Below the pieces are notes generated by a model. The model made no database searches. It was not told where the DNA came from and saw only the letters and a program-made list of their open reading frames with translations. From Myxococcota bacterium (lineage in GTDB: Bacteria; Myxococcota_A; UBA9160; UBA4427): DNA of 64,000 bases. Within the stretch, counting starts at the first letter, position 1, and each line of letters starts with the position of its first letter. The translations under genes and the position numbers were made by a program. Location: positions 2,473-66,472 of the forward strand of contig JAZAOF010000007.1 of the NCBI GenBank assembly GCA_036228265.1, given 5' to 3'. Of the stretch, positions 43,666 to 56,806 are shown piece by piece.

Positions 43666-44862
43666 CTACACCAGCGGATCGACCTTCGGAAGCCCCGTCA
43701 TCGCGCGGGCATAGGCTTCGGCGCTCGCATCCCAATCGGCCACGATATGCCCCGAGAATGCCTGGATGTCGCGCAGAGCCCTCTGGAGGGGTTCCTCGTC
43801 GAATATCGCGTGCCCCCCGGCGGCGGGCTGCAAGCGAGCGACGGCGCCCGCGCAGGTCTGGATCGCCCAGCTCGCGTCGCGGCGATACCGAGCCCGTACT
43901 TCATAGCTCGCAGCGACGCCTGCCGCCGCGTTTGCGGTCATCTCGTCACAATCCCGTAGAACCAGGAGTTCCGCAGCGTCCACCTCGGCGGCCGAGGCCG
44001 AATAACGCAACTGCGCCGCCACCTGTTGATCGGCGCCCTTGAGAGTGGTGGCCCTCACCTTCGTGGCCAGGCGCTCCCGAAAGCATTCCAGCGCACCCTG
44101 GGCGATTCCGATCGCGACCCCGGTCAGTCCCAGGGTTGCCACCGACGACCCCGGTAGCCCACCCGAGCGCCGCCCGGTCTTTTCGCGATCTTCCTGGTGA
44201 CCCTCGGACTCCATCATCCCCCGGATCAGCCGCTCCTCGGGCACGAAGACGTCTTCCACAACGATCTTCTTGCTTCCCGTGCCGCGCATACCGAATACGT
44301 GCCAGTTGTCTTCCAGCGCGTAGTCGGATCGGGGCAGAAGGCAGTTCGCCACCCCGAGTGGGACCCCATCGGAGCACGCCTCGTCTTCCGCGCTTTTGAA
44401 TTCCAGGGCAGACAGCACAGCGTAATCCGAATGATCGCTGGTACTTGCAAAATCCCAATTTCCGCTCAGGCGGTAGCCACCTGCACTGGGCACCAATCGG
44501 CCCGACGGCATGAACACCCCGCAAATCACTGCGTCGGGGTTTTTCCCAAAAATCTCGGCCTGCACTTCGTGCGGATACTGCGAAGCAATGTGGCTGTGAA
44601 GCGTACAAATCGCGAGGCACCAACCGCTGCTTCCGCACGCCCGCGCGACTTCACGGGAGGTCTCGATGACTGTCGCAATTTCGAGTCCATACCCCCCGAA
44701 CTCGGGCGCGACGAACGCTCGCAAGAGCCCCTCGCGCTTGATGTCCTCGACCGTTTCGTCGGGAAGGCGACGCAAAAGCTCGCATTCCCGCGAACGCCTG
44801 GCCAGGATTGGCGCGAGCGTGCGGGCTTGCTCGACGAGTTCCGAACGTGTCACCTGGGCCAT
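43666..44862 (-). CDS. Acyl-CoA-dehydrogenase-fold flavin-dependent monooxygenase (HsaA/DszC-like group)
   Basis: 'LAPILARRSRECELLRRLPDETVEDIKREGLLRAFVAPEFGG', 'GYRLSGNWDFASTSDHSDY' and no C-terminal catalytic Glu context, as in the ACAD-type two-component oxygenases. Confidence 0.8.
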   Translation of the reverse strand: MAQVTRSELVEQARTLAPILARRSRECELLRRLPDETVEDIKREGLLRAFVAPEFGGYGLEIATVIETSREVARACGSSGWCLAICTLHSHIASQYPHEVQAEIFGKNPDAVICGVFMPSGRLVPSAGGYRLSGNWDFASTSDHSDYAVLSALEFKSAEDEACSDGVPLGVANCLLPRSDYALEDNWHVFGMRGTGSKKIVVEDVFVPEERLIRGMMESEGHQEDREKTGRRSGGLPGSSVATLGLTGVAIGIAQGALECFRERLATKVRATTLKGADQQVAAQLRYSASAAEVDAAELLVLRDCDEMTANAAAGVAASYEVRARYRRDASWAIQTCAGAVARLQPAAGGHAIFDEEPLQRALRDIQAFSGHIVADWDASAEAYARAMTGLPKVDPLV

Positions 44863-45060
44863 TCGCGGTCCTCGGTACGCAGAATTCAGTCCTCCAAATC
44901 TCTATGGTAGTCTAGCCCGATCACGCGTCCTGCGGAGATTTCATCGATGATCCGTTTCACGCCGGGCGTTTTCGATGCTCACCGGGGAGCGTTTTGGGGA
45001 AATCGAGAACTCACCGCCCCGGCATTCAAGAACGACTGACGCGGCCCCAGGAGAAATCGC

Positions 45061-45582
45061 GTGCATCGCTATCGCCTTGAACGGGACCAGTGGCTCGATC
45101 ATCCGCTGCCCCGGGTCTTCGACTTCTTTTCCCGGGCCGAAAATCTCGGGGCCATTACTCCCCCCTGGCTCCGATTCCGGTTTCGCACGCCACTCCCCGT
45201 CGAGATGGCCAGGGACGCCCGCATCGAATACACGCTCGCACTGGGCGGGGTGCCCCTTCGATGGCGCACGCGCATTACCGCCTGGGAACCGGAACGCCGC
45301 TTCGTCGACGTGCAGGAGAGTGGGCCCTATGCCCTCTGGGAGCACCATCATCTGTTCGAAGAAAAAAACGGCGGTGTCCTGATGCAGGATCGCGTCGACT
45401 ACGCGCTTCCCCTGGGCCCCCTGGGACGAGCCGTTCACTTCCTGGCGATTCGGGCCATGCTCTCCGCGATCTTCGACTACCGCTTCCAGTGCGTGCCGGC
45501 GCTGCTCGCCGACGCGGGGACGACCGCTCCAAGAGTGGCCAAAAGTAGGATGGACATGAGACCTCCTGGGGATGAACTCTAG
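45061..45582 (+). CDS. SRPBCC (START/Bet v1-like) family protein
   Basis: 'PLPRVFDFFSRAENLGAITPPWL.F', 'W.PERRFVD.Q..GPYALWEH.H.F' and 'LG.L...F......L..IFDYR' motifs. GTG start after AGGAGA. Confidence 0.8.
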   Translation: MHRYRLERDQWLDHPLPRVFDFFSRAENLGAITPPWLRFRFRTPLPVEMARDARIEYTLALGGVPLRWRTRITAWEPERRFVDVQESGPYALWEHHHLFEEKNGGVLMQDRVDYALPLGPLGRAVHFLAIRAMLSAIFDYRFQCVPALLADAGTTAPRVAKSRMDMRPPGDEL

Positions 45583-46544
45583 AAGTTGAAGTGCTCGCCG
45601 ACCGCGCGCTCGGAAACGTCCCACAGCTTTCGCGCGGTGTCCGGATTGATGGCCCAGGGGGCGTAGCCCTCGGCCTCCTCTTCGGATTCCCTCTTCGCCG
45701 CCACCTGGCAATCTTCCAGGTAGAGCCCTCCTGCTCCCTCGAGTTCAGGGGCCACGCAGGCCCATACCGAAGTCGCCGCCCCCGCCTCCACGCTCTTCCA
45801 GACCATCTCGCTTCGGTCCGGACGGCGGGCCATCAGTTCCTTGATATCGGCCTCGTCGAGATGGCGACCCAGTTCGGTGAGGATCATCCCCGGGTGAACG
45901 GCGTTCGCCGTAACGCCGTGATCGGCCAGGCGGCGGTTGAGCTCGACCGAAAAAAGAATATTCGCGGTCTTCGACTGTCCGTAGGACTCCCACTTGTCGT
46001 AAGGGCGGTTCTCGTAGTGGAGGTCCTCCAGGACGACGTCCGACATCCTGTGGCCGGCCGAACTCAGGTTGACGATGCGCGACGGGGCCGACTTCCGTAG
46101 CGCGGGCACGAGGAGGCCCGTAAAAAGAAAATGTCCGAAGTGATTGGTGGCCATCTGGAGTTCGTATCCTTCGGACGTACGCTCGAGCGGGCAGGCCATG
46201 ATCCCCGCGTTGTTCACCAACCAATGCAGCTTTTCATGCTCGCCAAGCCAACGTTCGGCCGCCGCCCGGATGCTGGCAGTGCGGGTCAACTCCAGTTCGA
46301 GCACATCGACCCGCGGGTTCCCGGTGCTGGAACGAATCTCCTCGGCCACGCCTTCGGCCTTTGCAACATCCCGGGCGGACAGGGTCACGCTGGCTCCACG
46401 GGCGGCAAGGGCTCGGGCTGTTTCCGCACCCAGCCCCCCGGAGGCCCCGGTGACGAGAGCGACACGCCCCTCGAGGTCGAGCCCCTGGGTCACCTGCTCC
46501 GTGGTCGTCTCCGCTCCATGCGCATTCCGCTCTCTCGAACTCAT
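45579..46544 (-). CDS. SDR family oxidoreductase (retinol-dehydrogenase/WWOX-like)
   Basis: 'VALVTGASGGLGAETARALA', 'LVNNAGIM', 'NLSSAGH' and 'YGQSKTANILF' (YxxxK). Confidence 0.85.
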   Translation of the reverse strand: MSSRERNAHGAETTTEQVTQGLDLEGRVALVTGASGGLGAETARALAARGASVTLSARDVAKAEGVAEEIRSSTGNPRVDVLELELTRTASIRAAAERWLGEHEKLHWLVNNAGIMACPLERTSEGYELQMATNHFGHFLFTGLLVPALRKSAPSRIVNLSSAGHRMSDVVLEDLHYENRPYDKWESYGQSKTANILFSVELNRRLADHGVTANAVHPGMILTELGRHLDEADIKELMARRPDRSEMVWKSVEAGAATSVWACVAPELEGAGGLYLEDCQVAAKRESEEEAEGYAPWAINPDTARKLWDVSERAVGEHFNF

Positions 46545-46655
46545 CGATTCCCCTTCGCCACTTCGCTGGGCACCCCGCCCGCGGTCGGAAGTATGGCATA
46601 CGGGGGAACCCACCCGTAGGACCCCGCGCTGATCCGAAGCGGAGAACTCCGCCGC

Positions 46656-47939
46656 TCAGGCGAAGTCCGAGAGGGGGCTCATTTCGGGAGAATCGGTCGA
46701 AGTCTCCCCCGTTTCTGCGGTCAGGCGATCGTACCCGTCCAGGAGAGCGGCCCCCAGGCGCGCGATCCGAATCTCGCCAAAAGGCGTCGTTAAACCGCTG
46801 TTGGCCACGAAAGCCATCGAAAGGCGGCGGGTGGGATCGGCCCACGCCCCAGACCCCCCGAAGCCAAAGTGCCCAAACGCACCGGGAATCCTTCCATATG
46901 TAGTAAACGCCGCGTGGTAACCCAGGCGCCAACCCAGATCGATGGGAAGCACCTCGTGGTTGCCCGTCGCCGGCTGAACCTCGGTGGCCTCCCGGAGCGT
47001 CTCCGACGAGATCAGACGAACACCGTCGAGAGATCCCCCTTCGGCGAGAGCGGCGTACATCCGCGCCAGCGAACGCGCGTCGAAGATCCCGTTGGCCGAG
47101 GGAATCGGCACCGCGAGGGTCTCTGCCGAGTCGAACTCGAAGTCCTCCATGCCCGCAGGCACGAGCGCGTCGCGAAGACTGTTCAATGCGACCTGGCCCC
47201 CAACAAAGTCCACGAAAGGCTGGGCGTAGTCGAGGGCAGTCGAGAAAGCCCCCGCGATCGTCCGCGTGAAGCTTCCCACGACCCCGGACCCGAGCGGGCC
47301 ACGCATTGGCCAGACGAGGTCCGCGGCGCGGGCGATGGCTTCGGGCGGTGCCCCGCAGTAGAAACCCTCGAGGCCCAGCGGACGGGCAATCTCCTCTCGA
47401 ACGAGTACCGGAAAAGGAGTATCGGTCACGCGCTGCAGAAGTTCCCCCACGATGAAGCCGTAGGTCAGGCCGTGGTAGCCCGTGCGCTGTCCCGGCTCAT
47501 GAACCGGCTCCGCGTTCTCAATCGCACGAACCATGAAATCCCAATCGCGCATACGTGATGCGTCGTCGACCATCCGACGAATGGCATAGAGACCCGCCTG
47601 GTGACAAAGAACCTGGCGAACCGTGATTCGGCTCTTCCCCGACCGACCAAACTCCGGCCAGTAGCGGGCGACCGGCGCATCGTATTCGAGTTGGCCACGA
47701 TCGACCGCGATGTGGACCAGCGTGGAAGCCACCCCCTTGGTCGCCGAGAAGACCGGGGACAGGGTGTCGCGCTGCCAGGGGCGCCCCTCGCCGTCCCGGC
47801 TTCCTCCCCAGATATCAACGACCGGGCGTCCCCGGAAATAGACGCAGAGCCCTGCTCCGCCCGCGTTCGCATCCACTTCTCGCACGAAGCGATTCCCCAA
47901 GGAGGCAAACGCGGGATGCAGGTAGCCGTCGAGATTCAT
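46656..47939 (-). CDS. Serine hydrolase, beta-lactamase class C / esterase family
   Basis: 'VFSATKGVAS' (SxxK), 'YHGLTYG' (Y-x-N-like) and 'FGHFGFGGS' (KTG-equivalent region). Confidence 0.85.
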   Translation of the reverse strand: MNLDGYLHPAFASLGNRFVREVDANAGGAGLCVYFRGRPVVDIWGGSRDGEGRPWQRDTLSPVFSATKGVASTLVHIAVDRGQLEYDAPVARYWPEFGRSGKSRITVRQVLCHQAGLYAIRRMVDDASRMRDWDFMVRAIENAEPVHEPGQRTGYHGLTYGFIVGELLQRVTDTPFPVLVREEIARPLGLEGFYCGAPPEAIARAADLVWPMRGPLGSGVVGSFTRTIAGAFSTALDYAQPFVDFVGGQVALNSLRDALVPAGMEDFEFDSAETLAVPIPSANGIFDARSLARMYAALAEGGSLDGVRLISSETLREATEVQPATGNHEVLPIDLGWRLGYHAAFTTYGRIPGAFGHFGFGGSGAWADPTRRLSMAFVANSGLTTPFGEIRIARLGAALLDGYDRLTAETGETSTDSPEMSPLSDFA

Positions 47940-47990
47940 CGTACCCCCCCAAAAAACCTGTCCGACACCCCGAACGCAACAGGCGGAGTT

Positions 47991-50900
47991 TTACGGTGCC
48001 GAAACGCCCGCGGTCGCCGCCTCCAACTCGGTCTCGAAGGGCACGAGGACTACGGGCTCCAAGCGAATATCGCCACCGGTATAAACCAGGTCCGGAACGC
48101 TGGGCGCGACCGGGATCACTGGTATGTCCGTCGAGAGGGTAAGACCCGCACCCGAGAAGCTCCCCGGGGCGGACGGCGCGGGAGGAGAGACCAATTCGGG
48201 AAGATCCAGCACCTCAACCGGCGGCAGCGCCGCGGCGGAAACCACCGACGGGCGCCCCTCCACCAGGTAGCGAACGTCGACACTTCCGACGCAGGCGTCA
48301 CCCAGCTTTCGCTCCAGGCGATCCAGTCCCTTCCGGAGGCGACTGTCGCAGCGATCCACCTGCCTCGTCACATTGCGTCCAGCCCGCTGTTTTCTCGCGG
48401 CGCTGCGCCGACACGTGTCGTGGCGCCCGACGACACGAGCCAGTGCGGAAGAGCAAGCCGGGCTCGTTTCAACCGACTCCCCTGCGTCCACGCCAGTTGC
48501 CGCCAGGCTCGACGCAACCGACTCGGCCACCTCGGTCTTGAGACCCGCGGTATCCGGGCAGAAGTCGCTGCGGCTCGTGGCACGCGCCACGTCCCAATCC
48601 AGGCGATCGTTGCAAGACGAATAATCCGGTGAACTGTCGGCTCTCATCGCATCTCGCGCCCGAACGAAATGACACGAAATCGCACGATCGGCAGCCCTCT
48701 CCAGGGAGGACGCGCAGCGCCTTTCCGAGCGGGTCCGCTGCGGGTCCAACGCCTCATTGGGATCGTCGGGATAGTGATCCAGGCTGTTCAGGATCCGGTC
48801 TCCGTCGCGATCGGCATCACAGGCATCCCCGCGCAAGTCACCGTCCTGATCCTCCTGGGTCGCATTGGAAACCTGGGGGCAATTGTCCGCGTTTCCGACG
48901 ACGCCATCGCCGTCGGGATCGTTGGCCGGGTCGTTTTCGGGGTCGTTGGGATAGGTGTCGCTGTTGTCCCCGATGCCGTCGCCGTCGGTATCGGTGTCCT
49001 CGGTATCGTCATTCGGGAAGGCATCGGTCTCGTTCCGCGTGCCGTCCCCGTCCCGATCGTCGTCGCAGGCGTCGCCCAGGGGGTCGCCGTCCATGTTCAA
49101 CTGGTCGGCATTGGGCGTTTCGGAGCAGTTGTCGACATCCCCGCAGACGCCGTCTCCATCGACGTCATTTCTCGCATCGTGGGGACACGGGTCGAGGTTG
49201 TCGAAGACTCCGTCGTCATCGCTGTCCGCTTCCGGCGGCTCCTCGCTCACGAAGTACGACCCGAGCATGATGAACATCTCGTCCTCGGTGGTAACCCCCC
49301 CTTGGACCGGGCAGGCATCGCAGCGGGCACCCGAAAAGCCATCCACCTGGCAGAAGGCGTCGCTCTTCTGCCACACGACTTCACTGCCGAAGTCCACCGG
49401 CTGGGCACATCTCGCACCCTTGTTGGGTCCGCTGTCGCAGGCCACGACCTCGTTACTGCAGGGCCCCCCCGGAACGAGGCTTCGGAAAAAGGCGGGCGCG
49501 TAGGGCGAAGTCGACTGCCGCTTGATCGGTGGACTCCCGGGACCTACCCCGTTGTCATACTTGCTACAGAAGATGAAGGTGCGCTCTTCTTCCGTCGTGT
49601 CCTGGTAGGAAAGCATCGGGTGCAGCTTCAGATTGATCGGATCGCTGTACTCGGTGCTGACATAGATCAACTGGTCTTGATTTCCGGGCTCGCACTCCGT
49701 GTCGGGACGTTCGTTGTTTCTTACACCACTGCGGTTTCCAAGACAGGGTTGGTTCGGCGGTTCATAGATCGTGAACTCGACTCCGAAGCGATGCGTGTGC
49801 GAATTGATCCGGTAGACATTGGCGTCCTGGGGGGCCGTCCAACTCGCGCAGATCGTTTGCGTTTCGCCCGGGGGAACATCCTGCGCGAAAATGTCGTGCG
49901 CATCGAAGATCGCCTGCTGCTGGTGGTCGCGTTTATCCTCGGGAGCAAAGTGAATATTGAGCCACTGCTCCATGGTCGTCCAGTAATTCGTCAAGTTGAA
50001 CGCGTGGCTGTTCCAGACGATGACTCCCTGCATCGGCAGGACCGAGTAGACGCCCGTCGGAAAATAGTTCACGTAGTAGGATTCCTGGGACCCGCTGAAC
50101 GAGGGAAAGGTGGATCCCTGCAAGTTGACACCGCCGGCCACCAGGTCGCTCGGGCCGTAGTTGGCGACACACGCCACGGATGACACCACTTCCCCGGCGC
50201 AGTTGTCGTGGGCCCCGGGCAAGAATCCGGCTGAAGTGTCCGTCGGGTCGCAGGCGTCTCCCTTTTCGTAGTGACTGACATCCGGGATAAAGGATCCTGG
50301 GACCGGGGTCACAATCATGGTCGGCTTCTTGTAGGTAAAATCGCCGAAACCGCGGTTGTTCGGCGATAGGTCCTCGACTTCGTAGTCGCCGGTGTAGAGA
50401 TGGATGATGCTGTGATGCGATTGCGCATCCTGCTTCAAGACCTCCCGGTTGTAGTAGAAGCACTTTTCGGAGGGATTGTTTGGCCCGAAAACTCCGGAAC
50501 AATCGACCTGCATCTCGGGAGGCACCACGCCGTTCTCGGTGAGGTCGTAGTAGGTTGCGACGCAGATCTCGTCCTCGCTATTGGGAGGAAGATCCCAGGG
50601 TGGCATCACGAACTGAACCCCCTTCCCGCGCCGGGGGGTGGGAAGCGGCGTCGACTTGAGAGGGGTGGGATCCGGCAGGCAGGCGGAGAACAGCTCGGCC
50701 GTTTCGTCGACGATCACCGCGTTGCCATTGGAATCGTTCTCGTCCGGGGCCCCCGCAAGGACCCATTTCTCCATGGCTGCGTACAGGTCTTCGGAAAGCC
50801 CTCCGGGCGGCATCGGGCCACCGTGCCCCGAAGGCAGCGGCGTTCCGTGGGCCGCGGCCTTGAGCTTGTCCATGAGGTAGCTGTCCCGGACTTCGTGGGG

Positions 50901-51824
50901 AAACACGTAGACCCCGTCGTGAAAAAAGTTGTTGGACTCGACGTTGACGAGGTTTCGGTGGATGTTCTCAGGCCGGAGATCGAGCCCTCCTGCGGCCCCA
51001 CCCGGCTGGCGATCGTCGTGGCAGGACTGGCATCCGTCAAAGACGAGCCCCTTGATCGCTCCGAAAGTACTGCCGAACTGTGGCTGGCCGGCGCAGACGA
51101 GTTCTTCGCACGTGTCGCTGCACGTGTCCGCTTCGTCGAGGTTTCCGTCGTCACACGCCTCGCCGAGTTCACGAAGCCCATTGCCGCAGATCGGCTCAGG
51201 ACAATCCGCAGTCGCCGAAGCGTCCACCGCCCGGTAGTGCCCCGGCTGCTGAATGTCGACAGCCGGGCTGGTTTGATCCGAAGCGAGAGCGCAATACCAC
51301 TCGTCCTGGAGCTTGAAGTGCACCCAGAGTCCGTCGAGCACTCCTTCGGGTGCCCAGGCCCAGTTCTCGCCCCCGGCTTCCATGGCAATCCCACCGGACC
51401 GCAACTCGACCGACTTCACTCCGCCGCGGCTCCCGGTCGGATCGCTGTACTGGTAGGACGAACCTCCTTCGCCGACGACGGCCGACCACATCGAAGGATC
51501 GAGTTCGATCCTCTCGGTGCGCCCCGAACTGGAGTTCACGCCGCGCACGAGGAGGGCGCTCGTATCATTCCTTGGGTCGTGCCCACCGGCCAGGACGTTT
51601 TGCCCCGAGGTCTCAAAGCGGAACAAGCGATCGGCCGGGGCGCCCGCCGTCCTGAGTTCGACCATGTCCAATTGAACCGGGTCGTTCGTCTCGTGGCCGA
51701 CGGCCGGCAACGAGGCGGCCAGCACCAGAACCACTAGGGAAAGTCGGGTGCGCAGCCGTTGAAGAAGTCTCTCGGATCTTTTCCGAGCATTCTTCGGCAT
51801 CTTCATCTCGTCCAACGGCTCCAT
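47991..51824 (-). CDS. Large secreted multidomain protein: Cys-rich repeat, CxxCH haem-c-like module, PHM/DBH-like copper-monooxygenase-like core, thrombospondin type-3 repeats, Cys-containing C-terminal region
   Basis: Signal peptide (start may be ATG 51824, 51806 or 51800). 'CGNGLRELGEACDDGN..DTCSDTCE'. 'CQSCHDDRQPGGAAGGLDL' at 51018-51032. 'HH' at 50412-50417, 'HTH' at 49791-49799 and 'EDEMF' Met at 49275-49277. D-x-D-x-D-G repeats at 48756-49223. Confidence 0.85.
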   Translation of the reverse strand: MEPLDEMKMPKNARKRSERLLQRLRTRLSLVVLVLAASLPAVGHETNDPVQLDMVELRTAGAPADRLFRFETSGQNVLAGGHDPRNDTSALLVRGVNSSSGRTERIELDPSMWSAVVGEGGSSYQYSDPTGSRGGVKSVELRSGGIAMEAGGENWAWAPEGVLDGLWVHFKLQDEWYCALASDQTSPAVDIQQPGHYRAVDASATADCPEPICGNGLRELGEACDDGNLDEADTCSDTCEELVCAGQPQFGSTFGAIKGLVFDGCQSCHDDRQPGGAAGGLDLRPENIHRNLVNVESNNFFHDGVYVFPHEVRDSYLMDKLKAAAHGTPLPSGHGGPMPPGGLSEDLYAAMEKWVLAGAPDENDSNGNAVIVDETAELFSACLPDPTPLKSTPLPTPRRGKGVQFVMPPWDLPPNSEDEICVATYYDLTENGVVPPEMQVDCSGVFGPNNPSEKCFYYNREVLKQDAQSHHSIIHLYTGDYEVEDLSPNNRGFGDFTYKKPTMIVTPVPGSFIPDVSHYEKGDACDPTDTSAGFLPGAHDNCAGEVVSSVACVANYGPSDLVAGGVNLQGSTFPSFSGSQESYYVNYFPTGVYSVLPMQGVIVWNSHAFNLTNYWTTMEQWLNIHFAPEDKRDHQQQAIFDAHDIFAQDVPPGETQTICASWTAPQDANVYRINSHTHRFGVEFTIYEPPNQPCLGNRSGVRNNERPDTECEPGNQDQLIYVSTEYSDPINLKLHPMLSYQDTTEEERTFIFCSKYDNGVGPGSPPIKRQSTSPYAPAFFRSLVPGGPCSNEVVACDSGPNKGARCAQPVDFGSEVVWQKSDAFCQVDGFSGARCDACPVQGGVTTEDEMFIMLGSYFVSEEPPEADSDDDGVFDNLDPCPHDARNDVDGDGVCGDVDNCSETPNADQLNMDGDPLGDACDDDRDGDGTRNETDAFPNDDTEDTDTDGDGIGDNSDTYPNDPENDPANDPDGDGVVGNADNCPQVSNATQEDQDGDLRGDACDADRDGDRILNSLDHYPDDPNEALDPQRTRSERRCASSLERAADRAISCHFVRARDAMRADSSPDYSSCNDRLDWDVARATSRSDFCPDTAGLKTEVAESVASSLAATGVDAGESVETSPACSSALARVVGRHDTCRRSAARKQRAGRNVTRQVDRCDSRLRKGLDRLERKLGDACVGSVDVRYLVEGRPSVVSAAALPPVEVLDLPELVSPPAPSAPGSFSGAGLTLSTDIPVIPVAPSVPDLVYTGGDIRLEPVVLVPFETELEAATAGVSAP

Positions 51825-52027
51825 TCAGCTCGGCCTTCCAAAATCGATTCCGAGTCTCGTCCCCCGGCGCGTAGAGGCTCTCGACTGTCGGTGGGGTCAA
51901 TCGGTGAAGGTAACCGATCAAGGCTACAGAGCCGCATCCGGCGCGCGAAGTTCCGCCCGGGGGACACCGCCTTCTCGCACGCGAACGCGTGGCCCCGATG
52001 AGCCCGAAAGCTCCCCCGGGGGAGGAC

Positions 52028-52414
52028 TCAGTCGCCCGATTCCGATCCCGTGTACCACCAGGCCCAGAGAAGAAAGAGTGCCTGGAAGGGAAGCCTCACG
52101 TAGTTGAAGACCGGGTCGCCGGTGCCGGGTCCATCGATGCCGACGTTCTCCAGGGCCACGTAGAGGTTCGCCGGAAAAACGGCGATCAGCAGCGCGATGA
52201 TGCCCCACGCCGCGAACGCTCGAACCCGCGGATCGAGCAGGAAGACGCCGAGCACGATCTCGGCCAACCCGGAGATCACGTTCAACCACTCGGGGTTCGG
52301 CAATCCCGGGGGCATGATGGCCACATAGAAGCCGGGATTCATCAAGTGGTTGAAGCCGGCCAGCGCATAGACCACCGCCATGACCCACAAAAGCAGATGC
52401 TTGATCCGACTCAC
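52028..52414 (-). CDS. DoxX-like family membrane protein
   Basis: ~128 aa, four TM segments. 'AGFNHLMNPGFYVAIMPPGLP', 'SGLAEIVLG' and 'IAVFPANLYVA' motifs. GTG start at 52414. The longer ORF-track N-terminus overlaps the divergent LLM gene. Confidence 0.7.
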   Translation of the reverse strand: MSRIKHLLLWVMAVVYALAGFNHLMNPGFYVAIMPPGLPNPEWLNVISGLAEIVLGVFLLDPRVRAFAAWGIIALLIAVFPANLYVALENVGIDGPGTGDPVFNYVRLPFQALFLLWAWWYTGSESGD

Positions 52415-52486
52415 GTCCTTATTGTGACCCCTCGCTGGCGAAAATCCAGCCCCGGGTACTGGTCGAATCCCGATAGACTCCCGAGC

Positions 52487-53464
52487 ATGGAAAAAACCAT
52501 TGTCTACGACATGCGGGCTCCGGCTTTCGGGGCCAGGGCGGGCGATCTCTACGAGGCCGCCCTGGACCAGGTGGCGTGGGCGGACGAAATGGGCTTCGAC
52601 TTCGTCGGGCTCGGCGAACATCACGCCGCCGAGGACGGCTACAACCCCTCCCCTCTTATCCTCGCCAGTGCCATGGCCGCGCGCTCGAAGCGCATTGGGC
52701 TTCGCACCTCGGTTCTGCTCGCCCCCTTCTACGATCCCATCAAGCTCGCCGAAGACGCCGCCGTCACGCAGATTCTCAGCGGCGGTCGCCTCGTTTTGGG
52801 CATCGGTGGAGGGTACCGACCGGCCGAGTTCGCGATGTTCGGGCGCGCCCTGGCGGACCGCTGGAAGACCATCGGCGATGTCTGCCAACTGCTTCGCCTG
52901 GCGTGGACGGGCGAGCCCTTCAAGTGGAAGGGACGCCCCTGTCACGTCACGCCACGACCGGATCCACCGCCTTCGATTCTCCTCGGAGGGAGTTCAGCCG
53001 CCGCGGCGCGCCGGGCTGCGCGTATCGCCGACGGTTGGTTGCCGCCGCTCGAGCCACGACTTTGGAAACCGTACCGCGAGGAATGCGTGCAACTGGGAAA
53101 GCCGGATCCCGGACCCTATCCCAACCAGGGACCCATATTTCTCTGGGTCAGTCGCGACCCCGCCGCCGACTGGGAGTGGCTGCTTCCCCACGTCGCGCAC
53201 CAGATTCGCTCGTACGGCGAGTGGACCGTCGAAGCTTTCGGCGCAGCCGCCGGTCCATTCAAGGGCGAACTCGACCCCGAGGCCATTCGTCGCAATCCCG
53301 CCTATCGGGTGGTCACCCCGGAGGATGCGCTGGCGGTGGCGGAAGAACTGGGACCGAACGGCGTATTCCACCTGAATCCACTGCTCGCTGGAATCGATCC
53401 TTCGCGGGCGCGCCGAATGCTCGACCTCTACGAGAGCGAAGTGGACCCCTACCTCCCCCGATGA
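52487..53464 (+). CDS. LLM-class flavin-dependent oxidoreductase
   Basis: Starts MEKTIVYDM. 'GFDFVGLGEHH', 'RIGLRTSVLLAPFYDP', 'GGRLVLGIGGGYRPAEF' and 'GGSSAAAARRAARIADGW' motifs. Confidence 0.85.
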   Translation: MEKTIVYDMRAPAFGARAGDLYEAALDQVAWADEMGFDFVGLGEHHAAEDGYNPSPLILASAMAARSKRIGLRTSVLLAPFYDPIKLAEDAAVTQILSGGRLVLGIGGGYRPAEFAMFGRALADRWKTIGDVCQLLRLAWTGEPFKWKGRPCHVTPRPDPPPSILLGGSSAAAARRAARIADGWLPPLEPRLWKPYREECVQLGKPDPGPYPNQGPIFLWVSRDPAADWEWLLPHVAHQIRSYGEWTVEAFGAAAGPFKGELDPEAIRRNPAYRVVTPEDALAVAEELGPNGVFHLNPLLAGIDPSRARRMLDLYESEVDPYLPR

Positions 53465-53554
53465 GCGCTCGACCCGGTTCCCTCAGCACCTCACACCACC
53501 CTTTCATCTGTTAGAGTTTTACTGCGCCTTCAATCCACCCCGCCGAGGAATCCC

Positions 53555-54529
53555 ATGACCGAACCTCCCGCCTCCCTCACGGCGCCGCACCATCTCGCCT
53601 ATACCTACAAGCGGTCGCTCGGGCCGGTGCTTGGCGCATTCTTCAACGGCCTGCGGGAGCGACGCATCCTGGGCGTCCGGCGAGCCAATGGCGGAGTCCT
53701 GGTTCCGCCCAAGGAATATGACCCGGAAAGCGGTGAATCCATCGACGAGATGGTCGAAGTGTCGGACGAAGGCACGGTCGCCAGTTGGGCCTGGGTGAAC
53801 GCGCCGCGAGCCCACCAGCCCCTGGACCGCCCGTTCGCCTACGCCCTGATCCTCCTCGACGGAGCGGAAACACCGCTCCTGCACATCATCGACGCCCCCA
53901 ACGAGTCCGACATCAAGACAGGCATGCGCGTTCGAGCACGCTGGGCGGACGAGACCTCGGGCTCCATCCTGGACATCGCCTGCTTCGAAGCCGACGATGG
54001 TTCCAAGCCCCAGCCCAAGCCTGCTGCGAAGGCCGACGGGGGCGATCCCATCGAGATCCTGCGAATTCCCGTCGAACTCGACTACACGTACTCGGCGGGG
54101 CAATCGGCTTCCCGCTTGCTTCGCGGGCTCGCCGAAGGACGCTTGATCGGGCAACGCTGCCCCGTCGATGGAAAGGTCTATTTTCCCTCGCGCGGCTCGT
54201 GCGCCAAGCACGCCGTACCGCTCTCCGGCGACCCCGTCGAACTCACCGACCGCGGCACGCTCGTCACCTTCTCCATCAATCGCGTTCCCTCCGAGAACAT
54301 CAAGCTCGAGCTTCCCTACGCCGCCATCCAGGTGGTACTCGACGGAGCGGACACGACCTTTTTCCACGTCCTGGGGGAATGCAACATCGAAGACGTTCGC
54401 ATGGGGATGCGGGTCCAGGCGGTATGGAAACCGCGAGAGGAATGGGACCAATCCGTCGGAAACATTCTCTACTTCAAGCCCCTGGACGAAGCCGACGCGG
54501 ATTTCGACAGCTACAAGGAGCACATCTGA
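53555..54529 (+). CDS. Tandem DUF35 (Zn-ribbon/OB-fold) domain protein
   Basis: Two repeats of the DUF35 pattern ('..F...L.E.R..G.RC...G....PP...C..........E....G....') at about aa 15-150 and 175-320. The first repeat has no Zn-ribbon Cys residues and the second keeps only two. Confidence 0.8.
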   Translation: MTEPPASLTAPHHLAYTYKRSLGPVLGAFFNGLRERRILGVRRANGGVLVPPKEYDPESGESIDEMVEVSDEGTVASWAWVNAPRAHQPLDRPFAYALILLDGAETPLLHIIDAPNESDIKTGMRVRARWADETSGSILDIACFEADDGSKPQPKPAAKADGGDPIEILRIPVELDYTYSAGQSASRLLRGLAEGRLIGQRCPVDGKVYFPSRGSCAKHAVPLSGDPVELTDRGTLVTFSINRVPSENIKLELPYAAIQVVLDGADTTFFHVLGECNIEDVRMGMRVQAVWKPREEWDQSVGNILYFKPLDEADADFDSYKEHI

Positions 54530-55584
54530 TGCGCGATGTTGCCGTCGTCGGGTTTACGCAATCCAAGGTCTCCCGGCGCGAATTCGACCGAAACGAAACC
54601 GAGATCCTGATGCCCGTGATCCAGGAATTGAAGAAGGAGATGAATCTCGAAAACACCGACATCGACTTCATCTGCTCGGGAAGCAGCGACTACCTGGCGG
54701 GGCAGTCCTTTGCGTTTGTCGCGGGCCTCGACGCGGTCGGTGCCTGGCCCCCGGTTTCCGAATCCCACGTCGAAATGGACGGGGCCTGGGCCCTCTACGA
54801 GGCCTGGGTCAAGATGCAGATGGGCTACGCCGACATCTCGCTCGTGTACGGATTCGGCAAGCCGTCCATGGGGGACCTGCCCCATACCATGGCGCTTCAA
54901 CTCGATCCCTACGCGGTCATGCCGCTCTGGCCGGACGCGGTCAGCATGGCGGCGCTGCAGGCGCGCTTGTGCCTCGACGGAAACGTCTTCGACGAGCGCG
55001 CCATGGCCGACGTCGCCGTCCGAGACCGCTCTCACGCGAAAAACAATCCTTTCGCCCAGGTGTCGGGAGACTTCGAAGCCGACGCACTGCTTGCCGAACC
55101 GTACCTCGTCTCCCCCCTGCGCAAACACGATTGCTCGCCCATCTCCGACGGAGCCTCCGCCATCATCCTGGTCGCCGGAGATCGAGTCGGTGAATTCTGC
55201 GATCGCCCGGCGTGGATCCGGGGGTTCGAACACATCGTGGAGCCGCAAGACCTCGGCGCTCGAGACCTGACACAATCGCGCTCGACCGCCATCGCGGGCG
55301 AGAAGGCCGGTGTCGGGAAGGACAAGGTCGATGTCGCCGAGATCTACGCCCCTTTCTCCCACCAGTCGATCCTGGTCGAACGCGCTCTTGGCGTCGGGCC
55401 CGAAACGACGCTCAACCCTTCGGGCGGAGCGCTTGCTGGAAATCCGATCATGGCCACGGGTTTGTCTCGCATCGGAGAGGCCGCGGCCCAGGTCTGGAAC
55501 GGCACGGCCGACCGCGCTGTCGCCCACGCCACCTCGGGCCCGTGCCTGCAACAGAATCTCGTCTGCGTCCTGGAGGGAAACTAG
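54529..55584 (+). CDS. Thiolase-like (SCP-x/lipid-transfer-protein type) protein
   Basis: TGATG junction with the DUF35 gene. 'MRDVAVVGF', 'CSPISDGASAIIL', 'DVAEIYAPFS' and 'NPSGGALAGNPIMATG' show the thiolase fold. No obvious nucleophile Cys at the expected 'C.SG' position. Confidence 0.85.
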   Translation: MRDVAVVGFTQSKVSRREFDRNETEILMPVIQELKKEMNLENTDIDFICSGSSDYLAGQSFAFVAGLDAVGAWPPVSESHVEMDGAWALYEAWVKMQMGYADISLVYGFGKPSMGDLPHTMALQLDPYAVMPLWPDAVSMAALQARLCLDGNVFDERAMADVAVRDRSHAKNNPFAQVSGDFEADALLAEPYLVSPLRKHDCSPISDGASAIILVAGDRVGEFCDRPAWIRGFEHIVEPQDLGARDLTQSRSTAIAGEKAGVGKDKVDVAEIYAPFSHQSILVERALGVGPETTLNPSGGALAGNPIMATGLSRIGEAAAQVWNGTADRAVAHATSGPCLQQNLVCVLEGN

Positions 55585-55586
55585 TC

Positions 55587-56744
55587 ATGGCAGAACGCTG
55601 CGGAGTGGTCGGGATCGGCCAGACGAACTACGAGGCCAGTCGAGTGGATCTATCGATGGCCGGAATTCTTCGCGAAGCGGCTCAACGCGCTCTCGATGAC
55701 GCCGAACTCACGTGGAAAGACATCGACGCCGTCGTCATCGGAAAGGCGCCGGACATGTTCGAAGGCGTCATGATGCCCGAGCTCTTTCTCGCGGATGCCG
55801 TGGGCGGTGCATACAAGCCGATGCTGCGAGTCCATACCGCGGGGAGTGTCGGCGGTTCAACGGGAATCGTCGGCGCCAGCCTCGTTCAGTCGGGCGTACA
55901 CGACCGTGTCCTCGCCGTGGCTTTCGAGAAACAGTCCGAGAGCAACGCGATGTGGGCCCTGACCGTCTCGATGCCCTTTTCGGTAGCGGTCGTCGCCGGC
56001 GCCGGTGGTTTCTTCGCACCGCTGATCCGGGGCTACATGCGGCGCTCGGGGGCCCCCGAGGACACGGGCATCCGCGTGGCTCTCAAGGATCGTCTCAATG
56101 CCCTGAAAAATCCCTACGCGCACGTCAAGATGGAAGACGTGAGCTTCGAGCTGATCTCCGATTCCCCGATGCTCTGGGACCCGGTGCGCTACCTCGAGAC
56201 CTGTCCTTCATCGGACGGCGCCTGCGCAATGATTTTTGCCAACGAAAAACTCGCCTCGAAGGCGCCGACCCGCCCGGCGTGGGTACACGCCACGGAGATG
56301 CGGAGCGAGCCGACGGCCTTCTCTGGACGCGACCAGGTGATGCCCCAGGCCACCCTGGACAACGCGGCCGCACTCTACAAGAAGGCCGGGATCACCAACC
56401 CGCGCCAGGAACTCGACTGCGCAGAGATCTACGTCCCCTTCAGCTGGTTCGAACCGATGTGGCTCGAGGGCATGCGCATCACCGATATCAACGAGGGCTG
56501 GAAGATGACCTACGAGGGCGCCACCGCTCTCGACGGCGACTTCCCCATCAACATGTCCGGAGGGGTGCTCTCCTCGAACCCCATCGGCGCCTCGGGCTTG
56601 ATTCGTTTCGCCGAAAGCGCCCTCCAGGTGCGCGGCCAGGCGGGCGACCACCAGGTGGACGGCGCGAAGAAGGCCTTGGGACACGCCTACGGCGGCGGGT
56701 CGCAATACTTCTCCACCTGGATCGTCGGCAGCGAAAAGCCCTAG
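55587..56744 (+). CDS. Thiolase-like (SCP-x type) protein
   Basis: GGAGGG RBS. 'CGVVGIGQT', 'CPSSDGACAMIF', 'DCAEIYVPFSW' and 'NMSGGVLSSNPIGASGL' motifs. The expected nucleophile position reads 'HTAGSVGGS'. Confidence 0.85.
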   Translation: MAERCGVVGIGQTNYEASRVDLSMAGILREAAQRALDDAELTWKDIDAVVIGKAPDMFEGVMMPELFLADAVGGAYKPMLRVHTAGSVGGSTGIVGASLVQSGVHDRVLAVAFEKQSESNAMWALTVSMPFSVAVVAGAGGFFAPLIRGYMRRSGAPEDTGIRVALKDRLNALKNPYAHVKMEDVSFELISDSPMLWDPVRYLETCPSSDGACAMIFANEKLASKAPTRPAWVHATEMRSEPTAFSGRDQVMPQATLDNAAALYKKAGITNPRQELDCAEIYVPFSWFEPMWLEGMRITDINEGWKMTYEGATALDGDFPINMSGGVLSSNPIGASGLIRFAESALQVRGQAGDHQVDGAKKALGHAYGGGSQYFSTWIVGSEKP

Positions 56745-56806
56745 CCTCCCCCGGGCCACGGATCGTGCACCGCTCCCTAGGAAACGATCGAACAGCCCTG
56801 GCATCC

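What the first reader, a model, noticed from the sequence alone, without database searches (positions are those of the whole stretch)
47991..51824. 1277-aa secreted protein combining a haem-c CxxCH module with a PHM/DBH-like copper-monooxygenase motif set and TSP3 Ca-binding repeats
Domains in order: signal peptide; unknown beta-rich region; a Cys-rich 'CGNG...ACDDGN...C.D.C' repeat (myxobacterial-type); then 'FDGCQSCHDDRQPGGAAGGLDLR' (51018-51032), which resembles the planctomycete-type cytochrome c domain. The core follows, with 'MPPWDLPPNSEDEICVATYYDL', 'SHHSIIHLY' (50412-50417), 'NSHAFN', 'NSHTHRFG' (49791-49799) and 'TEDEMFIMLGSYF' (Met at 49275-49277). Their order and context mirror the CuH (HH...H) and CuM (HxH...M) ligands of peptidylglycine alpha-hydroxylating and dopamine beta-monooxygenases. 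Next come ~150 aa of D-x-D-x-D-G thrombospondin type-3 repeats (48756-49223) and a Cys-bearing helical tail. A covalently attached haem domain could replace ascorbate as electron donor. I am not aware of that architecture being described.
Basis: inference. Interest (0 to 1): 0.65.

Follow-up and report, generated by a model that had tools for sequence, protein, structure and literature searches.

The report
Haem-fused bacterial PHM/DBH-like copper monooxygenase
This gene encodes a secreted bacterial protein in which a c-type cytochrome is fused to a very diverged copy of the two-copper hydroxylase fold known from animal peptide-amidating and noradrenaline-making enzymes; it belongs to a sizeable, unannotated family that probably takes its electrons from the haem rather than from vitamin C.

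Summary
Window 47991-51824 (minus strand) is a 1277-aa ORF, and every quoted motif sits at the stated coordinates.

- **Core fold.** An AlphaFold2 model of residues 245-865 (pLDDT 90.6, pTM 0.89) has dopamine beta-hydroxylase and PHM as its 27 best PDB matches (E 1.8e-8 to 9e-5, probability 1.00).
- **Copper ligands.** H470, H471, H607, H676, H678 and M850 are invariant in 117 homologs of 40-50% identity. Every other His varies.
- **Haem site.** The CXnCH site and a Met-Pro pair are conserved. The domain is PSCyt1/FoxE/hydrazine-synthase-like.
- **Obligate fusion.** Of 58 further representatives that cover all motifs, 57 keep them all. The one real-looking member without a haem domain has lost all six Cu ligands.
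- **Sequence level.** No Pfam copper-monooxygenase model is passed. PHM's substrate triad R240/N316/Y318 is replaced, so the substrate differs.
- **Accessory parts.** TSP3 repeats and the myxobacterial Cys repeat are confirmed. The N-terminal beta domain has no PDB match, and the 252-aa tail has no detectable homolog.

The most likely mechanism is haem to CuH to CuM electron delivery for O2-dependent hydroxylation of an unknown extracytoplasmic substrate. Cofactors, electron direction and substrate are inferred, not shown. I found no published description.

The parts
47991..51824 (-). Complete ORF, 1277 aa plus stop codon
   Evidence: GC3 0.72-0.80 in all segments
51696..51824 (-). Sec signal peptide, residues 1-43: basic n-region, hydrophobic LSLVVLVLAASLPAVG, predicted cleavage AVG|H44
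   Evidence: Read from the sequence. In the family the -3/-1 residues are Ala/Ala in 64 and 69 of 76 sequences, and +1 is His in 92/104.
51195..51695 (-). N-terminal all-beta domain, residues 44-210. It starts with the predicted mature N-terminal His44 and carries H82-D83-P84. Function unknown.
   Evidence: AF2 pLDDT 94.6, 13 strands. No PDB match (best Foldseek E 0.055, generic Ig-like). Conservation.
51093..51194 (-). One myxobacterial-type Cys-rich acidic repeat (CGNG...CDDGN...C...C), residues 211-244
   Evidence: TIGR02232 at 30.1 bits against cut-off 20.8. DUF4215 at 22.6 bits, below its cut-off of 27.
50643..51092 (-). Mono-haem c-type cytochrome domain (PSCyt1/FoxE-like), residues 245-394
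   Evidence: Helical in the AF2 model. Domain profile hits FoxE at E 3e-4 and HZS-alpha at E 7e-4. PSCyt1 hits 11/24 family haem domains.
51018..51032 (-). Haem attachment motif C265-Q-S-C268-H269
   Evidence: Present in 113/113 sequences covering the region. Family-wide it is CX4CH in 166 and CX2CH in 22 sequences.
50808..50813 (-). M338-P339, candidate distal haem ligand (Met)
   Evidence: 117/117 invariant. It aligns with the Met-ligand region of class I cytochromes c and with the MP of FoxE. The ligand role is inferred.
49923..50642 (-). Core domain 1 (PHM N-domain-like, CuH domain), residues 395-634, with large Cys-rich insertions
   Evidence: AF2 and Foldseek. The boundary is taken from the hhalign register.
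50412..50417 (-). H470-H471, equivalents of PHM H107/H108 (CuH)
   Evidence: 117/117. hhalign against rat PHM pairs SHHSII with VHHMLL.
50004..50006 (-). H607 in WNSHAFN, proposed equivalent of PHM H172 (CuH)
   Evidence: 117/117, in a beta strand. The register rests on order and context, because hhalign places it only approximately.
49230..49922 (-). Core domain 2 (PHM C-domain-like, CuM domain), residues 635-865, with a roughly 90-aa Cys-rich insertion before the Met motif
   Evidence: Foldseek. hhalign C-domain against PHM C-domain gives E 0.0024, against 0.12-0.52 for the other three domain pairings.
49791..49799 (-). H676-T-H678 (then R-F-G681), equivalents of PHM H242-T-H244 (..G247) (CuM)
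   Evidence: 117/117. T677 is 111/117 and G681 is 115/117. Aligned by hhalign. Cu2_monoox_C hits this region in P0319.
49275..49277 (-). M850 in GGVTTEDEMF, equivalent of PHM M314 in GGTSSDEMC (CuM)
   Evidence: 115/117 with 2 gaps. D848 and E849 are conserved as in PHM D312 and E313. Aligned.
48750..49229 (-). Thrombospondin type-3 Ca-binding repeats, residues 866-1025
   Evidence: Pfam TSP_3 E 1.1e-13, 4 stretches. COMP 3fby E 4e-19. MtsC-like region.
47994..48749 (-). Orphan C-terminal tail, residues 1026-1277: a Cys-bearing Arg-rich helical part, then a Pro/Val-rich end
   Evidence: No homolog at E<=0.01 among 5.8 billion proteins, none in the family or the related loci. GC3 0.72-0.76.
47960..47975 (-). 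Weak terminator-like hairpin followed by T6, 16 nt after the stop codon
   Evidence: The number of such sites in the region equals the chance expectation, so this is weak.

Best explanation
The gene encodes a Sec-exported, disulfide-rich, extracytoplasmic redox enzyme. Its conserved functional unit is residues 245-865.

**The unit**
- A mono-haem c-type cytochrome domain: C265-x-x-C268-H269, with M338 as probable sixth ligand.
- This domain is packed against a very diverged two-domain PHM/DBH-fold core.
- The core carries a non-coupled two-copper site. CuH = H470, H471, H607. CuM = H676, H678, M850.

**Proposed mechanism**
1. The haem accepts single electrons from a periplasmic or extracellular carrier.
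2. The haem passes them to CuH, the job that ascorbate does in PHM and DBH.
3. CuH reduces CuM.
4. O2 is activated at CuM and a C-H bond of a bound substrate is hydroxylated.

**Substrate.** It is not a glycine-extended peptide, because PHM's carboxylate-anchoring triad is absent. It is unknown.

**Accessory modules.** The N-terminal beta domain, the Cys-rich repeat, the TSP3 Ca2+ repeats and the orphan tail vary between family members. They are taken to serve localisation, adhesion or substrate capture.

**Shown:** the fold, the conservation of the ligand set, and the obligate fusion.
**Inferred:** metal and haem occupancy, the direction of electron flow, oxygenase chemistry, and the substrate.
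For: **Fold.** The AF2 model of residues 245-865 has pLDDT 90.6 and pTM 0.89. The high pTM suggests the haem domain is docked on the core rather than loosely tethered. The 27 best Foldseek PDB hits are all DBH or PHM, at probability 1.00.

**Ligands.**
- The six Cu ligands, C265/C268/H269 and M338-P339 are invariant in 117 homologs, while all other His vary.
- The motif contexts match PHM beyond the ligands themselves: H-T-H-x-x-G and D-E-M. N605 occupies the position of PHM Q170.
- hhalign pairs HH, HTH and DEM with their PHM counterparts.

**Haem domain.**
- A domain profile finds FoxE (E 3e-4) and hydrazine synthase alpha (E 7e-4) in the PDB.
- PSCyt1 hits 11 of 24 isolated family haem domains.

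**Obligate fusion.**
- All 120 listed hits cover 83-99% of the haem+core query, 98-99% for nearly all.
- 57 of 58 further 50%-identity representatives that cover all motifs keep C-C-H-M + H-H-H-H-H-M. The 58th has a CX4CH site that was misaligned.
- Divergent minimal members consist of a lipoprotein signal, the haem domain and the core only.
- P0317, the only real-looking member without a haem domain, has lost all six Cu ligands.

**Extracytoplasmic location.** There is a signal peptide, 16 invariant Cys in the core, TSP3 repeats and a Cys-rich repeat.
Against: - No Pfam or PDB sequence profile links the core to PHM significantly. The window protein gets no Cu2_monooxygen or Cu2_monoox_C hit at E<1. 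The best family member scores 15.3 bits against a cut-off of 23. Whole-core hhalign gives E 0.011, probability 4%.
- Foldseek TM-scores are modest (0.35-0.55 normalised to the target, rmsd 7-11 A). Part of this comes from about 160 aa of insertions and a different inter-domain pose.
- I had no access to model coordinates. The haem-CuH distance, the ligand geometry and a residue-level superposition were not checked.
- hhalign did not place H607 exactly on PHM H172.
- There is no conserved neighbour gene, so no Cu chaperone, redox partner or substrate gene supports a pathway.
- The direction of electron flow cannot be read from sequence.
Confidence: 0.62

Rival explanations
1. The cofactors are the same but electrons flow the other way. 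The copper core oxidises a substrate as an oxidase or dehydrogenase, or acts on a small inorganic molecule such as nitrite, NO, hydroxylamine or superoxide. The haem c then hands the electrons on to the respiratory chain, or receives them for a reductase reaction, as in cytochrome-c-tethered copper nitrite reductases.
For: - The haem domain's nearest solved relatives are electron-transfer or N-cycle and Fe-oxidation cytochromes: FoxE and hydrazine synthase alpha.
- A His3 site next to a His2Met site loosely resembles the T2/T1 logic of Cu nitrite reductase (general knowledge).
- PHM crystals bind nitrite at copper, as the titles of 3mib and 3mlk show.
- Sequence cannot give the direction of electron flow.
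Against: - The fold and the exact ligand set (HH..H / HxH..M, with the D-E-M and H-T-H-x-x-G contexts) are those of the O2-activating hydroxylases, not of cupredoxin-type reductases.
- No denitrification or N-cycle genes lie nearby.
Confidence: 0.15
2. It is a non-catalytic surface or adhesion protein. The PHM-like core, the Cys-rich repeat and the TSP3 repeats form a structural or binding scaffold, and the conserved His and Met bind a structural metal.
For: - The accessory domains are typical of adhesins and matrix proteins: TSP3, an MtsC-like region, DUF4215, PEP-CTERM in relatives, and IPT/TIG and BamB-like propellers in others.
- PNGase F shares the fold without copper (ranks 33-40).
- One paralog, P0317, is clearly non-catalytic.
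Against: - A structural role does not explain absolute invariance of exactly the six catalytic-type ligands plus a haem site across 40%-identity homologs, nor their joint loss in P0317.
- The minimal members lack all adhesin-like modules.
Confidence: 0.06
3. It is a haem-centred enzyme. The cytochrome domain is the catalytic site, as proposed for fatty-acid cis/trans isomerase (CTI), or it acts as a peroxidase. The beta core only binds the (lipid?) substrate.
For: - Pfam CTI hits some family haem domains (E 4.4e-5 to 5e-4).
- The window neighbours are lipid and steroid-type catabolic genes: acyl-CoA dehydrogenase, SDR, thiolase-like, ChsH2-like, GDSL lipase and an esterase-like beta-lactamase fold.
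Against: - The CTI match covers only about 27-34 residues of the 692-position model, in the 'L..WI..GAP' helix of the haem domain.
- An invariant Met-Pro pair suggests a six-coordinate electron-transfer haem.
- This reading does not explain the conserved Cu ligand set.
- The neighbours are not conserved in 80 related loci.
Confidence: 0.05

Closest known systems
Peptidylglycine alpha-hydroxylating monooxygenase (PHM; PDB 1PHM, 1OPM, 1SDW) and dopamine beta-hydroxylase (PDB 4ZEL): copper type II, ascorbate-dependent monooxygenases
   Same: - The same two-domain beta-sandwich fold (Foldseek probability 1.00).
- The same order and local context of ligands: HH...H in domain 1, and H-T-H-x-x-G ... 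D-E-M in domain 2.
- A secreted, disulfide-rich protein.
   Different: - Bacterial rather than eukaryotic.
- About 10% identity, and it fails both Pfam models.
- The core is about 470 aa against 310, with Cys-rich insertions and 16 invariant Cys.
- PHM's substrate triad R240/N316/Y318 is replaced by S/I/L.
- A covalently fused c-type cytochrome precedes the core, where DBH has a DOMON domain and both animal enzymes rely on soluble ascorbate.
PSCyt1-type c-type cytochrome domains; FoxE (5MAB) and the C-terminal haem domain of hydrazine synthase alpha (5C2V)
   Same: The motif set C-Xn-C-H-G ... GGLDL ... S-x-L ... M-P ... L..WI..GAP is shared. Profile hits are E 3e-4 and 7e-4. PSCyt1 hits 11/24 family domains.
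   Different: - Most family members use CX4CH rather than CXXCH.
- The window copy itself is below every Pfam threshold.
- The domain is fused to a copper enzyme, not to the planctomycete DUF1549/1553-type partners (partner types from my own knowledge).
Cytochrome-c-tethered copper nitrite reductases, and the cellobiose dehydrogenase cytochrome domain that reduces LPMOs (functional analogues; comparison from general knowledge, not tested here)
   Same: A haem domain acts as a built-in or dedicated one-electron donor to a mononuclear copper centre of an extracytoplasmic enzyme.
   Different: - The copper folds are unrelated (cupredoxin or LPMO, against PHM).
- The haem type differs in cellobiose dehydrogenase (haem b).
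- Electron transfer has been shown experimentally in those systems, but not in this one.
Thrombospondin/COMP type-3 repeats, and the myxobacterial Cys-rich acidic repeat (TIGR02232/DUF4215)
   Same: Clear profile matches.
   Different: These are accessory here. Among the 120 listed homologs, only P0062 carries a precomputed TSP3 annotation. They are absent from the minimal family members.

Membership tests
Copper type II ascorbate-dependent monooxygenases (PHM/DBH; Pfam PF01082 + PF03712) | Two-domain PHM-type beta-sandwich fold | tested here: met
Copper type II ascorbate-dependent monooxygenases (PHM/DBH; Pfam PF01082 + PF03712) | CuH ligands: an HH pair plus a third His in domain 1 | tested here: met
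   H470, H471 and H607 are 117/117. HH is paired with PHM H107/H108 by hhalign. The H607 register is only approximate. The 3D geometry was not checked.
Copper type II ascorbate-dependent monooxygenases (PHM/DBH; Pfam PF01082 + PF03712) | CuM ligands: HxH plus Met in domain 2 | tested here: met
   H676 and H678 are 117/117, and M850 is 115/117 with 2 gaps. HTH..G is aligned with PHM H242-T-H244..G247. DEM matches D312-E313-M314.
Copper type II ascorbate-dependent monooxygenases (PHM/DBH; Pfam PF01082 + PF03712) | Score above the Pfam gathering thresholds, or significant profile similarity | tested here: not met
   The window protein gets no hit at E<1. The best family member, P0319, scores 15.3 bits on Cu2_monoox_C against a cut-off of 23. 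hhalign core against the PHM family gives E 0.011, probability 4%. A family profile finds no PHM or DBH in the PDB at E<=10.
Copper type II ascorbate-dependent monooxygenases (PHM/DBH; Pfam PF01082 + PF03712) | PHM-specific peptidyl-Gly anchoring residues R240, N316, Y318 | tested here: not met
   Motif-anchored positions 674, 852 and 854 are mostly S (S/G/N/A), I and L/I in this family. In 43 PHM-family sequences the same positions are R (43/43), N (38/43) and Y (39/43).
Copper type II ascorbate-dependent monooxygenases (PHM/DBH; Pfam PF01082 + PF03712) | Binds two Cu, uses ascorbate, and hydroxylates with O2 | not testable with these tools
   Needs metal analysis and enzymology.
c-type cytochrome, PSCyt1 type (PF07635) | Covalent haem-attachment motif CXnCH in an exported protein | tested here: met
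   C265-Q-S-C268-H269 follows a signal peptide. It is conserved in 113/113 sequences. Family-wide it is CX4CH in 166 and CX2CH in 22 sequences.
c-type cytochrome, PSCyt1 type (PF07635) | Profile match above the gathering score | tested here: inconclusive
   The window domain gets only Cytochrome_CBB3 at E 0.06. Among relatives, PSCyt1 hits 11/24 (best E 1.6e-5). P0254 scores 22.1 bits against a cut-off of 22, and P0328 scores 21.9. In the PDB the profile finds FoxE at E 3e-4 and HZS-alpha at E 7e-4.
c-type cytochrome, PSCyt1 type (PF07635) | Distal axial ligand (Met) | tested here: inconclusive
   M338-P339 is 117/117 and aligns with the Met-ligand region of cytochromes c551, c6 and c552, at weak E-values. 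Ligation itself was not testable.
Thrombospondin type-3 repeat (PF02412) | Profile match above the cut-off; D-x-D-x-D-G Ca-binding repeats | tested here: met
   51 bits against 25, 4 stretches. COMP at E 4e-19.
Myxobacterial Cys-rich acidic repeat (TIGR02232) | Profile match above the cut-off | tested here: met
   30.1 bits against 20.8, residues 212-240.
Histidine-brace copper proteins (LPMO, CopC, PmoB N-terminus), considered for the N-terminal domain | His as first residue of the mature protein, plus a second conserved His | tested here: met
   A-x-A|H occurs in 92/104 sequences. H44 and H82 are co-conserved: both present in 64, H44 only in 13, and neither in 9. H82 never occurs where another residue replaces H44; the single H82-bearing sequence without H44 has a gap there. 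Fisher p 1e-6, not corrected for phylogeny.
Histidine-brace copper proteins (LPMO, CopC, PmoB N-terminus), considered for the N-terminal domain | Fold related to a known His-brace domain | tested here: not met
   Foldseek against the PDB gives a best E of 0.055 (generic Ig-like). No LPMO, CopC, PmoB or DOMON appears in the top 50.
Fatty acid cis/trans isomerase (CTI, PF06934) | Match across the 692-position model | tested here: not met
   Only positions 81-114 are matched, in a few relatives and below the cut-off. This is shared haem-domain ancestry only.

The most novel reading that the evidence does not exclude
This family is a self-sufficient, ascorbate-independent, prokaryotic branch of the PHM/DBH hydroxylases, wired directly to bacterial electron-transfer chains through a fused cytochrome c. 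In most members, the window protein included, a third metal site may exist. It would be formed by the mature N-terminal His44 (with H82-D83) of a beta domain that has no detectable structural relative in the PDB, in a histidine-brace-like arrangement. The result would be an extracellular haem/tri-copper oxygenase acting on a non-peptide substrate, for example a lipid or hydrocarbon in these hydrocarbon-metabolising lineages. It could also represent the bacterial stock from which the eukaryotic neuroendocrine enzymes arose.
Probability: 0.15. Interest if true: 0.9.

Novelty: new variant of a known kind. Interest (0 to 1): 0.72.

Why it matters
- **A different electron donor.** PHM, DBH and tyramine beta-hydroxylase are treated in the literature I could search as eukaryotic, ascorbate-dependent enzymes. 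How electrons reach CuH and cross about 11 A to CuM is still debated (review PMC12164859). A natural fusion with a one-electron haem donor would allow electron entry to be triggered and followed optically. That would make this question directly testable.

- **An unannotated family.** At least 565 clusters at 50% identity match at E<=1e-3. They occur in uncultured Myxococcota, Binatia and Halieaceae genomes, often as tandem pairs. Almost all carry no Pfam annotation in the core.

- **Practical and evolutionary reach.** The family widens the known range of copper oxygenase architectures. It offers candidate ascorbate-free C-H hydroxylation catalysts and bears on the evolutionary origin of the neuropeptide- and catecholamine-processing enzymes.

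Tried and rejected
- **Pfam, NCBIfam and PDB sequence searches of the whole protein.** Only TSP3 and Cys-repeat hits came back, nothing for the core.
- **Family profile against PDB sequences.** No PHM or DBH was found.
- **hhalign of the core against rat PHM and a 43-sequence PHM-family alignment.** The result is not significant overall (E 0.22 and 0.011). Only the C-domain pairing stands out (E 0.0024). The alignments place HH, HTH and DEM correctly but misplace parts around the insertions.
- **Conserved gene neighbourhood.** All-against-all clustering of ORFs from 80 loci found no shared neighbour. The second-largest cluster was antisense shadow ORFs of the gene itself. Subclade neighbours are unrelated housekeeping or lipid genes. 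The window's own neighbours recur in at most 1 of 79 loci.
- **N-terminal domain as DOMON, LPMO or CopC.** No structural match was found.
- **Tail homologs.** None among 5.8 billion proteins, the family or the related loci.
- **Apparent 'degenerate' representatives P0369 and P0375.** They turned out to be frameshifted, Arg-rich mistranslations and were discarded. P0278 looks like a chimeric assembly.
- **CTI relationship.** Rejected as a 30-residue haem-domain similarity.
- **Literature.** Six full-text searches and three papers opened gave no description of a bacterial or haem-fused PHM-like enzyme.

Full report
**1. The observation**

Window 47991-51824 (minus strand) is an uninterrupted 1277-codon ORF.

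- C265-Q-S-C268-H269 at 51018-51032
- H470-H471 at 50412-50417
- H607 in NSHAFN at 50004-50006
- H676-T-H678 at 49791-49799
- M850 at 49275-49277

Third-position GC is 0.72-0.80 in every segment, including the C-terminal tail. The whole ORF is therefore coding in one frame and is not a frameshift fusion.

Two domains are confirmed by profiles:
- Pfam finds four TSP_3 repeats (51 bits, cut-off 25), and the PDB sequence search finds COMP and thrombospondins.
- NCBIfam TIGR02232 (myxobacterial Cys-rich acidic repeat) passes its cut-off at residues 212-240.

Nothing in Pfam, NCBIfam or the PDB sequence search touches residues 245-865 of the window protein at E<1.

**2. The family**

Residues 245-865 retrieve at least 661 clusters (90% identity) from 5.8 billion proteins. 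Nearly all of the 120 listed cover 98-99% of the query at 37-45% BLASTP identity, with a few fragments at 83-95%. Almost all carry no Pfam annotation beyond DUF4215.

A profile of the core alone finds 565 representatives (50% identity clusters) at E<=1e-3 among 1.84 billion proteins, and 162 at E<=1e-30. This is a moderate-sized, self-contained family. The much larger classical PHM/DBH family is not pulled in.

In species-representative genomes there are 250 confirmed relatives. The 79 distinct loci kept are all from uncultured MAGs labelled Myxococcota or 'Deltaproteobacteria', Binatia, Halieaceae and a few others.

**3. Conservation of the proposed cofactor ligands**

In a 117-sequence alignment the following are invariant:
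- H470, H471, H607, H676 and H678 (117/117)
- M850 (115/117, with 2 gaps)
- M338-P339 (117/117)
- C265, C268 and H269, present in all 113 sequences that cover them

The other 13 His positions of the region all vary. Sixteen Cys of the core are invariant or nearly so, as expected for an extracytoplasmic, disulfide-bonded protein.

Among 137 further representatives, 58 cover all motifs. Of these, 57 show the full pattern, and the 58th has a CX4CH site that was misaligned.

Divergent minimal members of about 560-650 aa consist of a lipoprotein-type signal, the haem domain and the core only. This defines haem + core as the functional unit.

The single real-looking member without a haem domain is P0317 (1458 aa). 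It has replaced all six copper ligands (Q, R, L, F, T, F). This joint loss argues that the haem and the two metal sites work together. It is one case only.

Two other 'degenerate' representatives were frameshift artefacts.

**4. Fold of the core**

AlphaFold2 with the 117-sequence alignment gives pLDDT 90.6 and pTM 0.89 for residues 245-865. The model has a helical N-terminal domain followed by two beta-rich domains.

Foldseek against 350,542 PDB chains returns human dopamine beta-hydroxylase (4zel, E 1.8e-8) and 25 PHM chains as the 27 best hits, all at probability 1.00. Jelly-roll capsid proteins and PNGase F follow, at probability 0.2 or less.

TM-scores normalised to PHM are 0.38-0.55, with rmsd 7-15 A. 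That fits a shared fold with large insertions (a core of about 470 aa against 310) and a different inter-domain pose.

**5. Sequence-level relation to PHM**

The similarity is marginal.
- A profile of the family finds no PHM or DBH in the PDB.
- hhalign against rat PHM gives E 0.22. My recalled PHM sequence was verified as 100% identical to 4e4z_A. Against a 43-sequence PHM alignment, hhalign gives E 0.011.
- Domain by domain, only the pairing of C-domain with C-domain stands out (E 0.0024, against 0.12-0.52 for the other three combinations).
- Pfam Cu2_monoox_C touches the HxH region of one relative at 15.3 bits (cut-off 23).

The alignments that are produced do pair the motifs correctly:

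| This protein | PHM |
|---|---|
| SHHSII | VHHMLL |
| SHTHRFG | VHTHHLG |
| GGVTTEDEMF | GGTSSDEMC |

Residues beyond the ligands are also shared and conserved in both families: T in H-T-H, G at +3 after the second His, and D-E before the Met. N605 sits at the position of PHM Q170.

By contrast, PHM's peptide-carboxylate anchors R240, N316 and Y318 are conserved in 43, 38 and 39 of the 43 PHM-family sequences. Here they correspond mostly to S, I and L. The protein is therefore a new family of the PHM/DBH fold with a different substrate, not a peptidylglycine or phenethylamine hydroxylase.

**6. The haem domain**

A profile of 24 isolated haem domains finds, in the PDB:
- FoxE, E 3e-4
- the C-terminal haem domain of hydrazine synthase alpha, E 7e-4
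- then class I cytochromes c, which align weakly at the Met-ligand region

Pfam PSCyt1 hits 11 of the 24 domains (best E 1.6e-5). Cytochrome_CBB3 and Cytochrom_C hit five each. One relative reaches the PSCyt1 gathering score (22.1 against 22).

The CTI (fatty-acid cis/trans isomerase) hits cover only about 30 residues of the same haem-domain helix.

The invariant M338 is the obvious candidate sixth ligand, which suggests an electron-transfer haem rather than a catalytic one. That last step is inference.

**7. Accessory parts**

- **Signal peptide.** The n-region is basic and the h-region hydrophobic. In the family the cleavage site is A-x-A, followed by His in 92/104 sequences.
- **N-terminal domain (residues 44-212).** It models confidently (pLDDT 94.6) as an all-beta domain. 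It has no PDB match (best E 0.055) and no resemblance to DOMON, LPMO or CopC.
- **TSP3 repeats.** They are rare in the family: among the 120 listed homologs only P0062 carries a precomputed TSP3 annotation.
- **Tail (residues 1026-1277).** It has no detectable homolog anywhere.
- **Other members.** They carry other add-ons: a roughly 300-aa helical Cys-rich N-domain, arrays of DUF4215 repeats, a BamB/PQQ-like propeller, IPT/TIG, or PEP-CTERM.

These modules look like interchangeable localisation or binding parts.

**8. Genomic context**

In the window the gene heads a same-strand series: a beta-lactamase-fold hydrolase, an SDR and an acyl-CoA dehydrogenase. It is divergent from a luciferase-like monooxygenase, a ChsH2-like protein, a thiolase-like protein and a GDSL lipase. 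A weak terminator-like hairpin follows the stop codon.

None of these neighbours recurs in more than 1 of the 79 related loci searched, and no neighbour is shared across the 80 sequences clustered (those 79 loci plus the window region). The only frequent neighbour is a second, tandem, full-length paralog, present in 23 of 80. Context therefore gives no partner or substrate.

**9. Mechanism**

*Best-supported reading, confidence about 0.6.* The protein is an extracytoplasmic, ascorbate-independent, non-coupled two-copper monooxygenase. Its CuH site is reduced by the fused cytochrome c, and O2 activation and C-H hydroxylation occur at CuM on an unknown, non-peptidylglycine substrate.
- Shown: the fold, ligand conservation, the obligate fusion, and the joint loss in P0317.
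- Inferred: metal and haem occupancy, electron direction, chemistry, and substrate.

*Rivals.*
- The same cofactors with reverse or different electron flow, as an oxidase, dehydrogenase or small-molecule reductase (about 0.15).
- A structural adhesin (about 0.06).
- Haem-centred, CTI-like chemistry (about 0.05).

**10. Novelty**

I found no description of a bacterial PHM/DBH-like enzyme, or of a haem-fused one, in six full-text searches or in the PHM reviews I opened.

InterPro and AFDB could not be consulted. From memory, some bacterial proteins carry Cu2_monoox_C annotations, so prokaryotic occurrence of the fold may not be wholly new. The family here is below those models' thresholds.

I rate it a new variant of a known kind: a known catalytic fold and ligand set, in a new family, with a new built-in electron donor, new hosts and a different substrate.

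Noticed in passing
window 51693-51695 (H44) and 51579-51581 (H82); family alignments A3/A4: The residue right after the predicted signal-peptidase site (A-x-A|) is His in 92/104 homologs. This includes members with a different, helical N-terminal domain (P0026, P0030, P0037). In the beta-domain group it co-occurs with an H-D-P motif (window H82-D83-P84): both present in 64 sequences, H44 only in 13, neither in 9. H82 never occurs where another residue replaces H44; the one H82-bearing sequence without H44 has a gap there (Fisher p 1e-6, not corrected for phylogeny). A mature N-terminal His is the hallmark of histidine-brace copper sites, so a third metal site is possible. The domain's fold matches no known His-brace protein.
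   Followed up: partly
family-wide; window 51018-51032: Most family members attach haem through a non-canonical C-X4-C-H motif (GCTxxxCHG; 166 sequences). Only the window's clade and a few divergent members use C-X-X-C-H (22 sequences).
   Followed up: yes
P0317 (1458 aa), a representative: This is a large paralog with a recognisable core. It has no haem domain, and all six Cu ligands are substituted (Q, R, L, F, T, F). It looks like a non-catalytic derivative.
   Followed up: partly
related loci, e.g. L002 3712-9027, L031 5839-9627, L042 2509-7857, L077 5749-9618: In 23 of the 80 sequences scanned (79 related loci plus the window region), two full-length haem+core paralogs lie in tandem on the same strand. 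One subclade has a conserved pair of minimal proteins of about 600 aa. This suggests a hetero-oligomer or substrate diversification.
   Followed up: partly
window 47994-48749 (-): The 252-aa C-terminal tail has an Arg-rich helical segment with 8 Cys, then a Pro/Val-rich end. It has no detectable homolog in 5.8 billion proteins, yet it has coding-type GC3. The search also shows that this genome is not in that collection.
   Followed up: yes
window 43666-47939 (-) and 51989-57655 (+): The flanking genes are of lipid or steroid-type catabolism: acyl-CoA dehydrogenase, SDR, a beta-lactamase-fold hydrolase, a luciferase-like monooxygenase, a ChsH2-like OB/zinc-ribbon protein, a thiolase-like protein and a GDSL lipase. 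A similar mix lies near homolog P0116 on an 8.1-Mb contig. The specific genes are not syntenic.
   Followed up: partly
P0241 residues 795-1249; P0242 residues 867-945: Other family members carry different C-terminal modules: a BamB/PQQ-like beta-propeller (PQQ_2, E 2.4e-30) or an IPT/TIG domain (E 0.0034, below its cut-off). C-terminal add-ons therefore look interchangeable.
   Followed up: no
window 48669-50183 (+), 50400-51737 (+) and equivalents in related loci: Long antisense 'shadow' ORFs (445-504 aa) overlap the gene, and they are 'conserved' across 65 loci. This is an artefact of high GC and a conserved sense frame. They could be mis-called as genes.
   Followed up: yes
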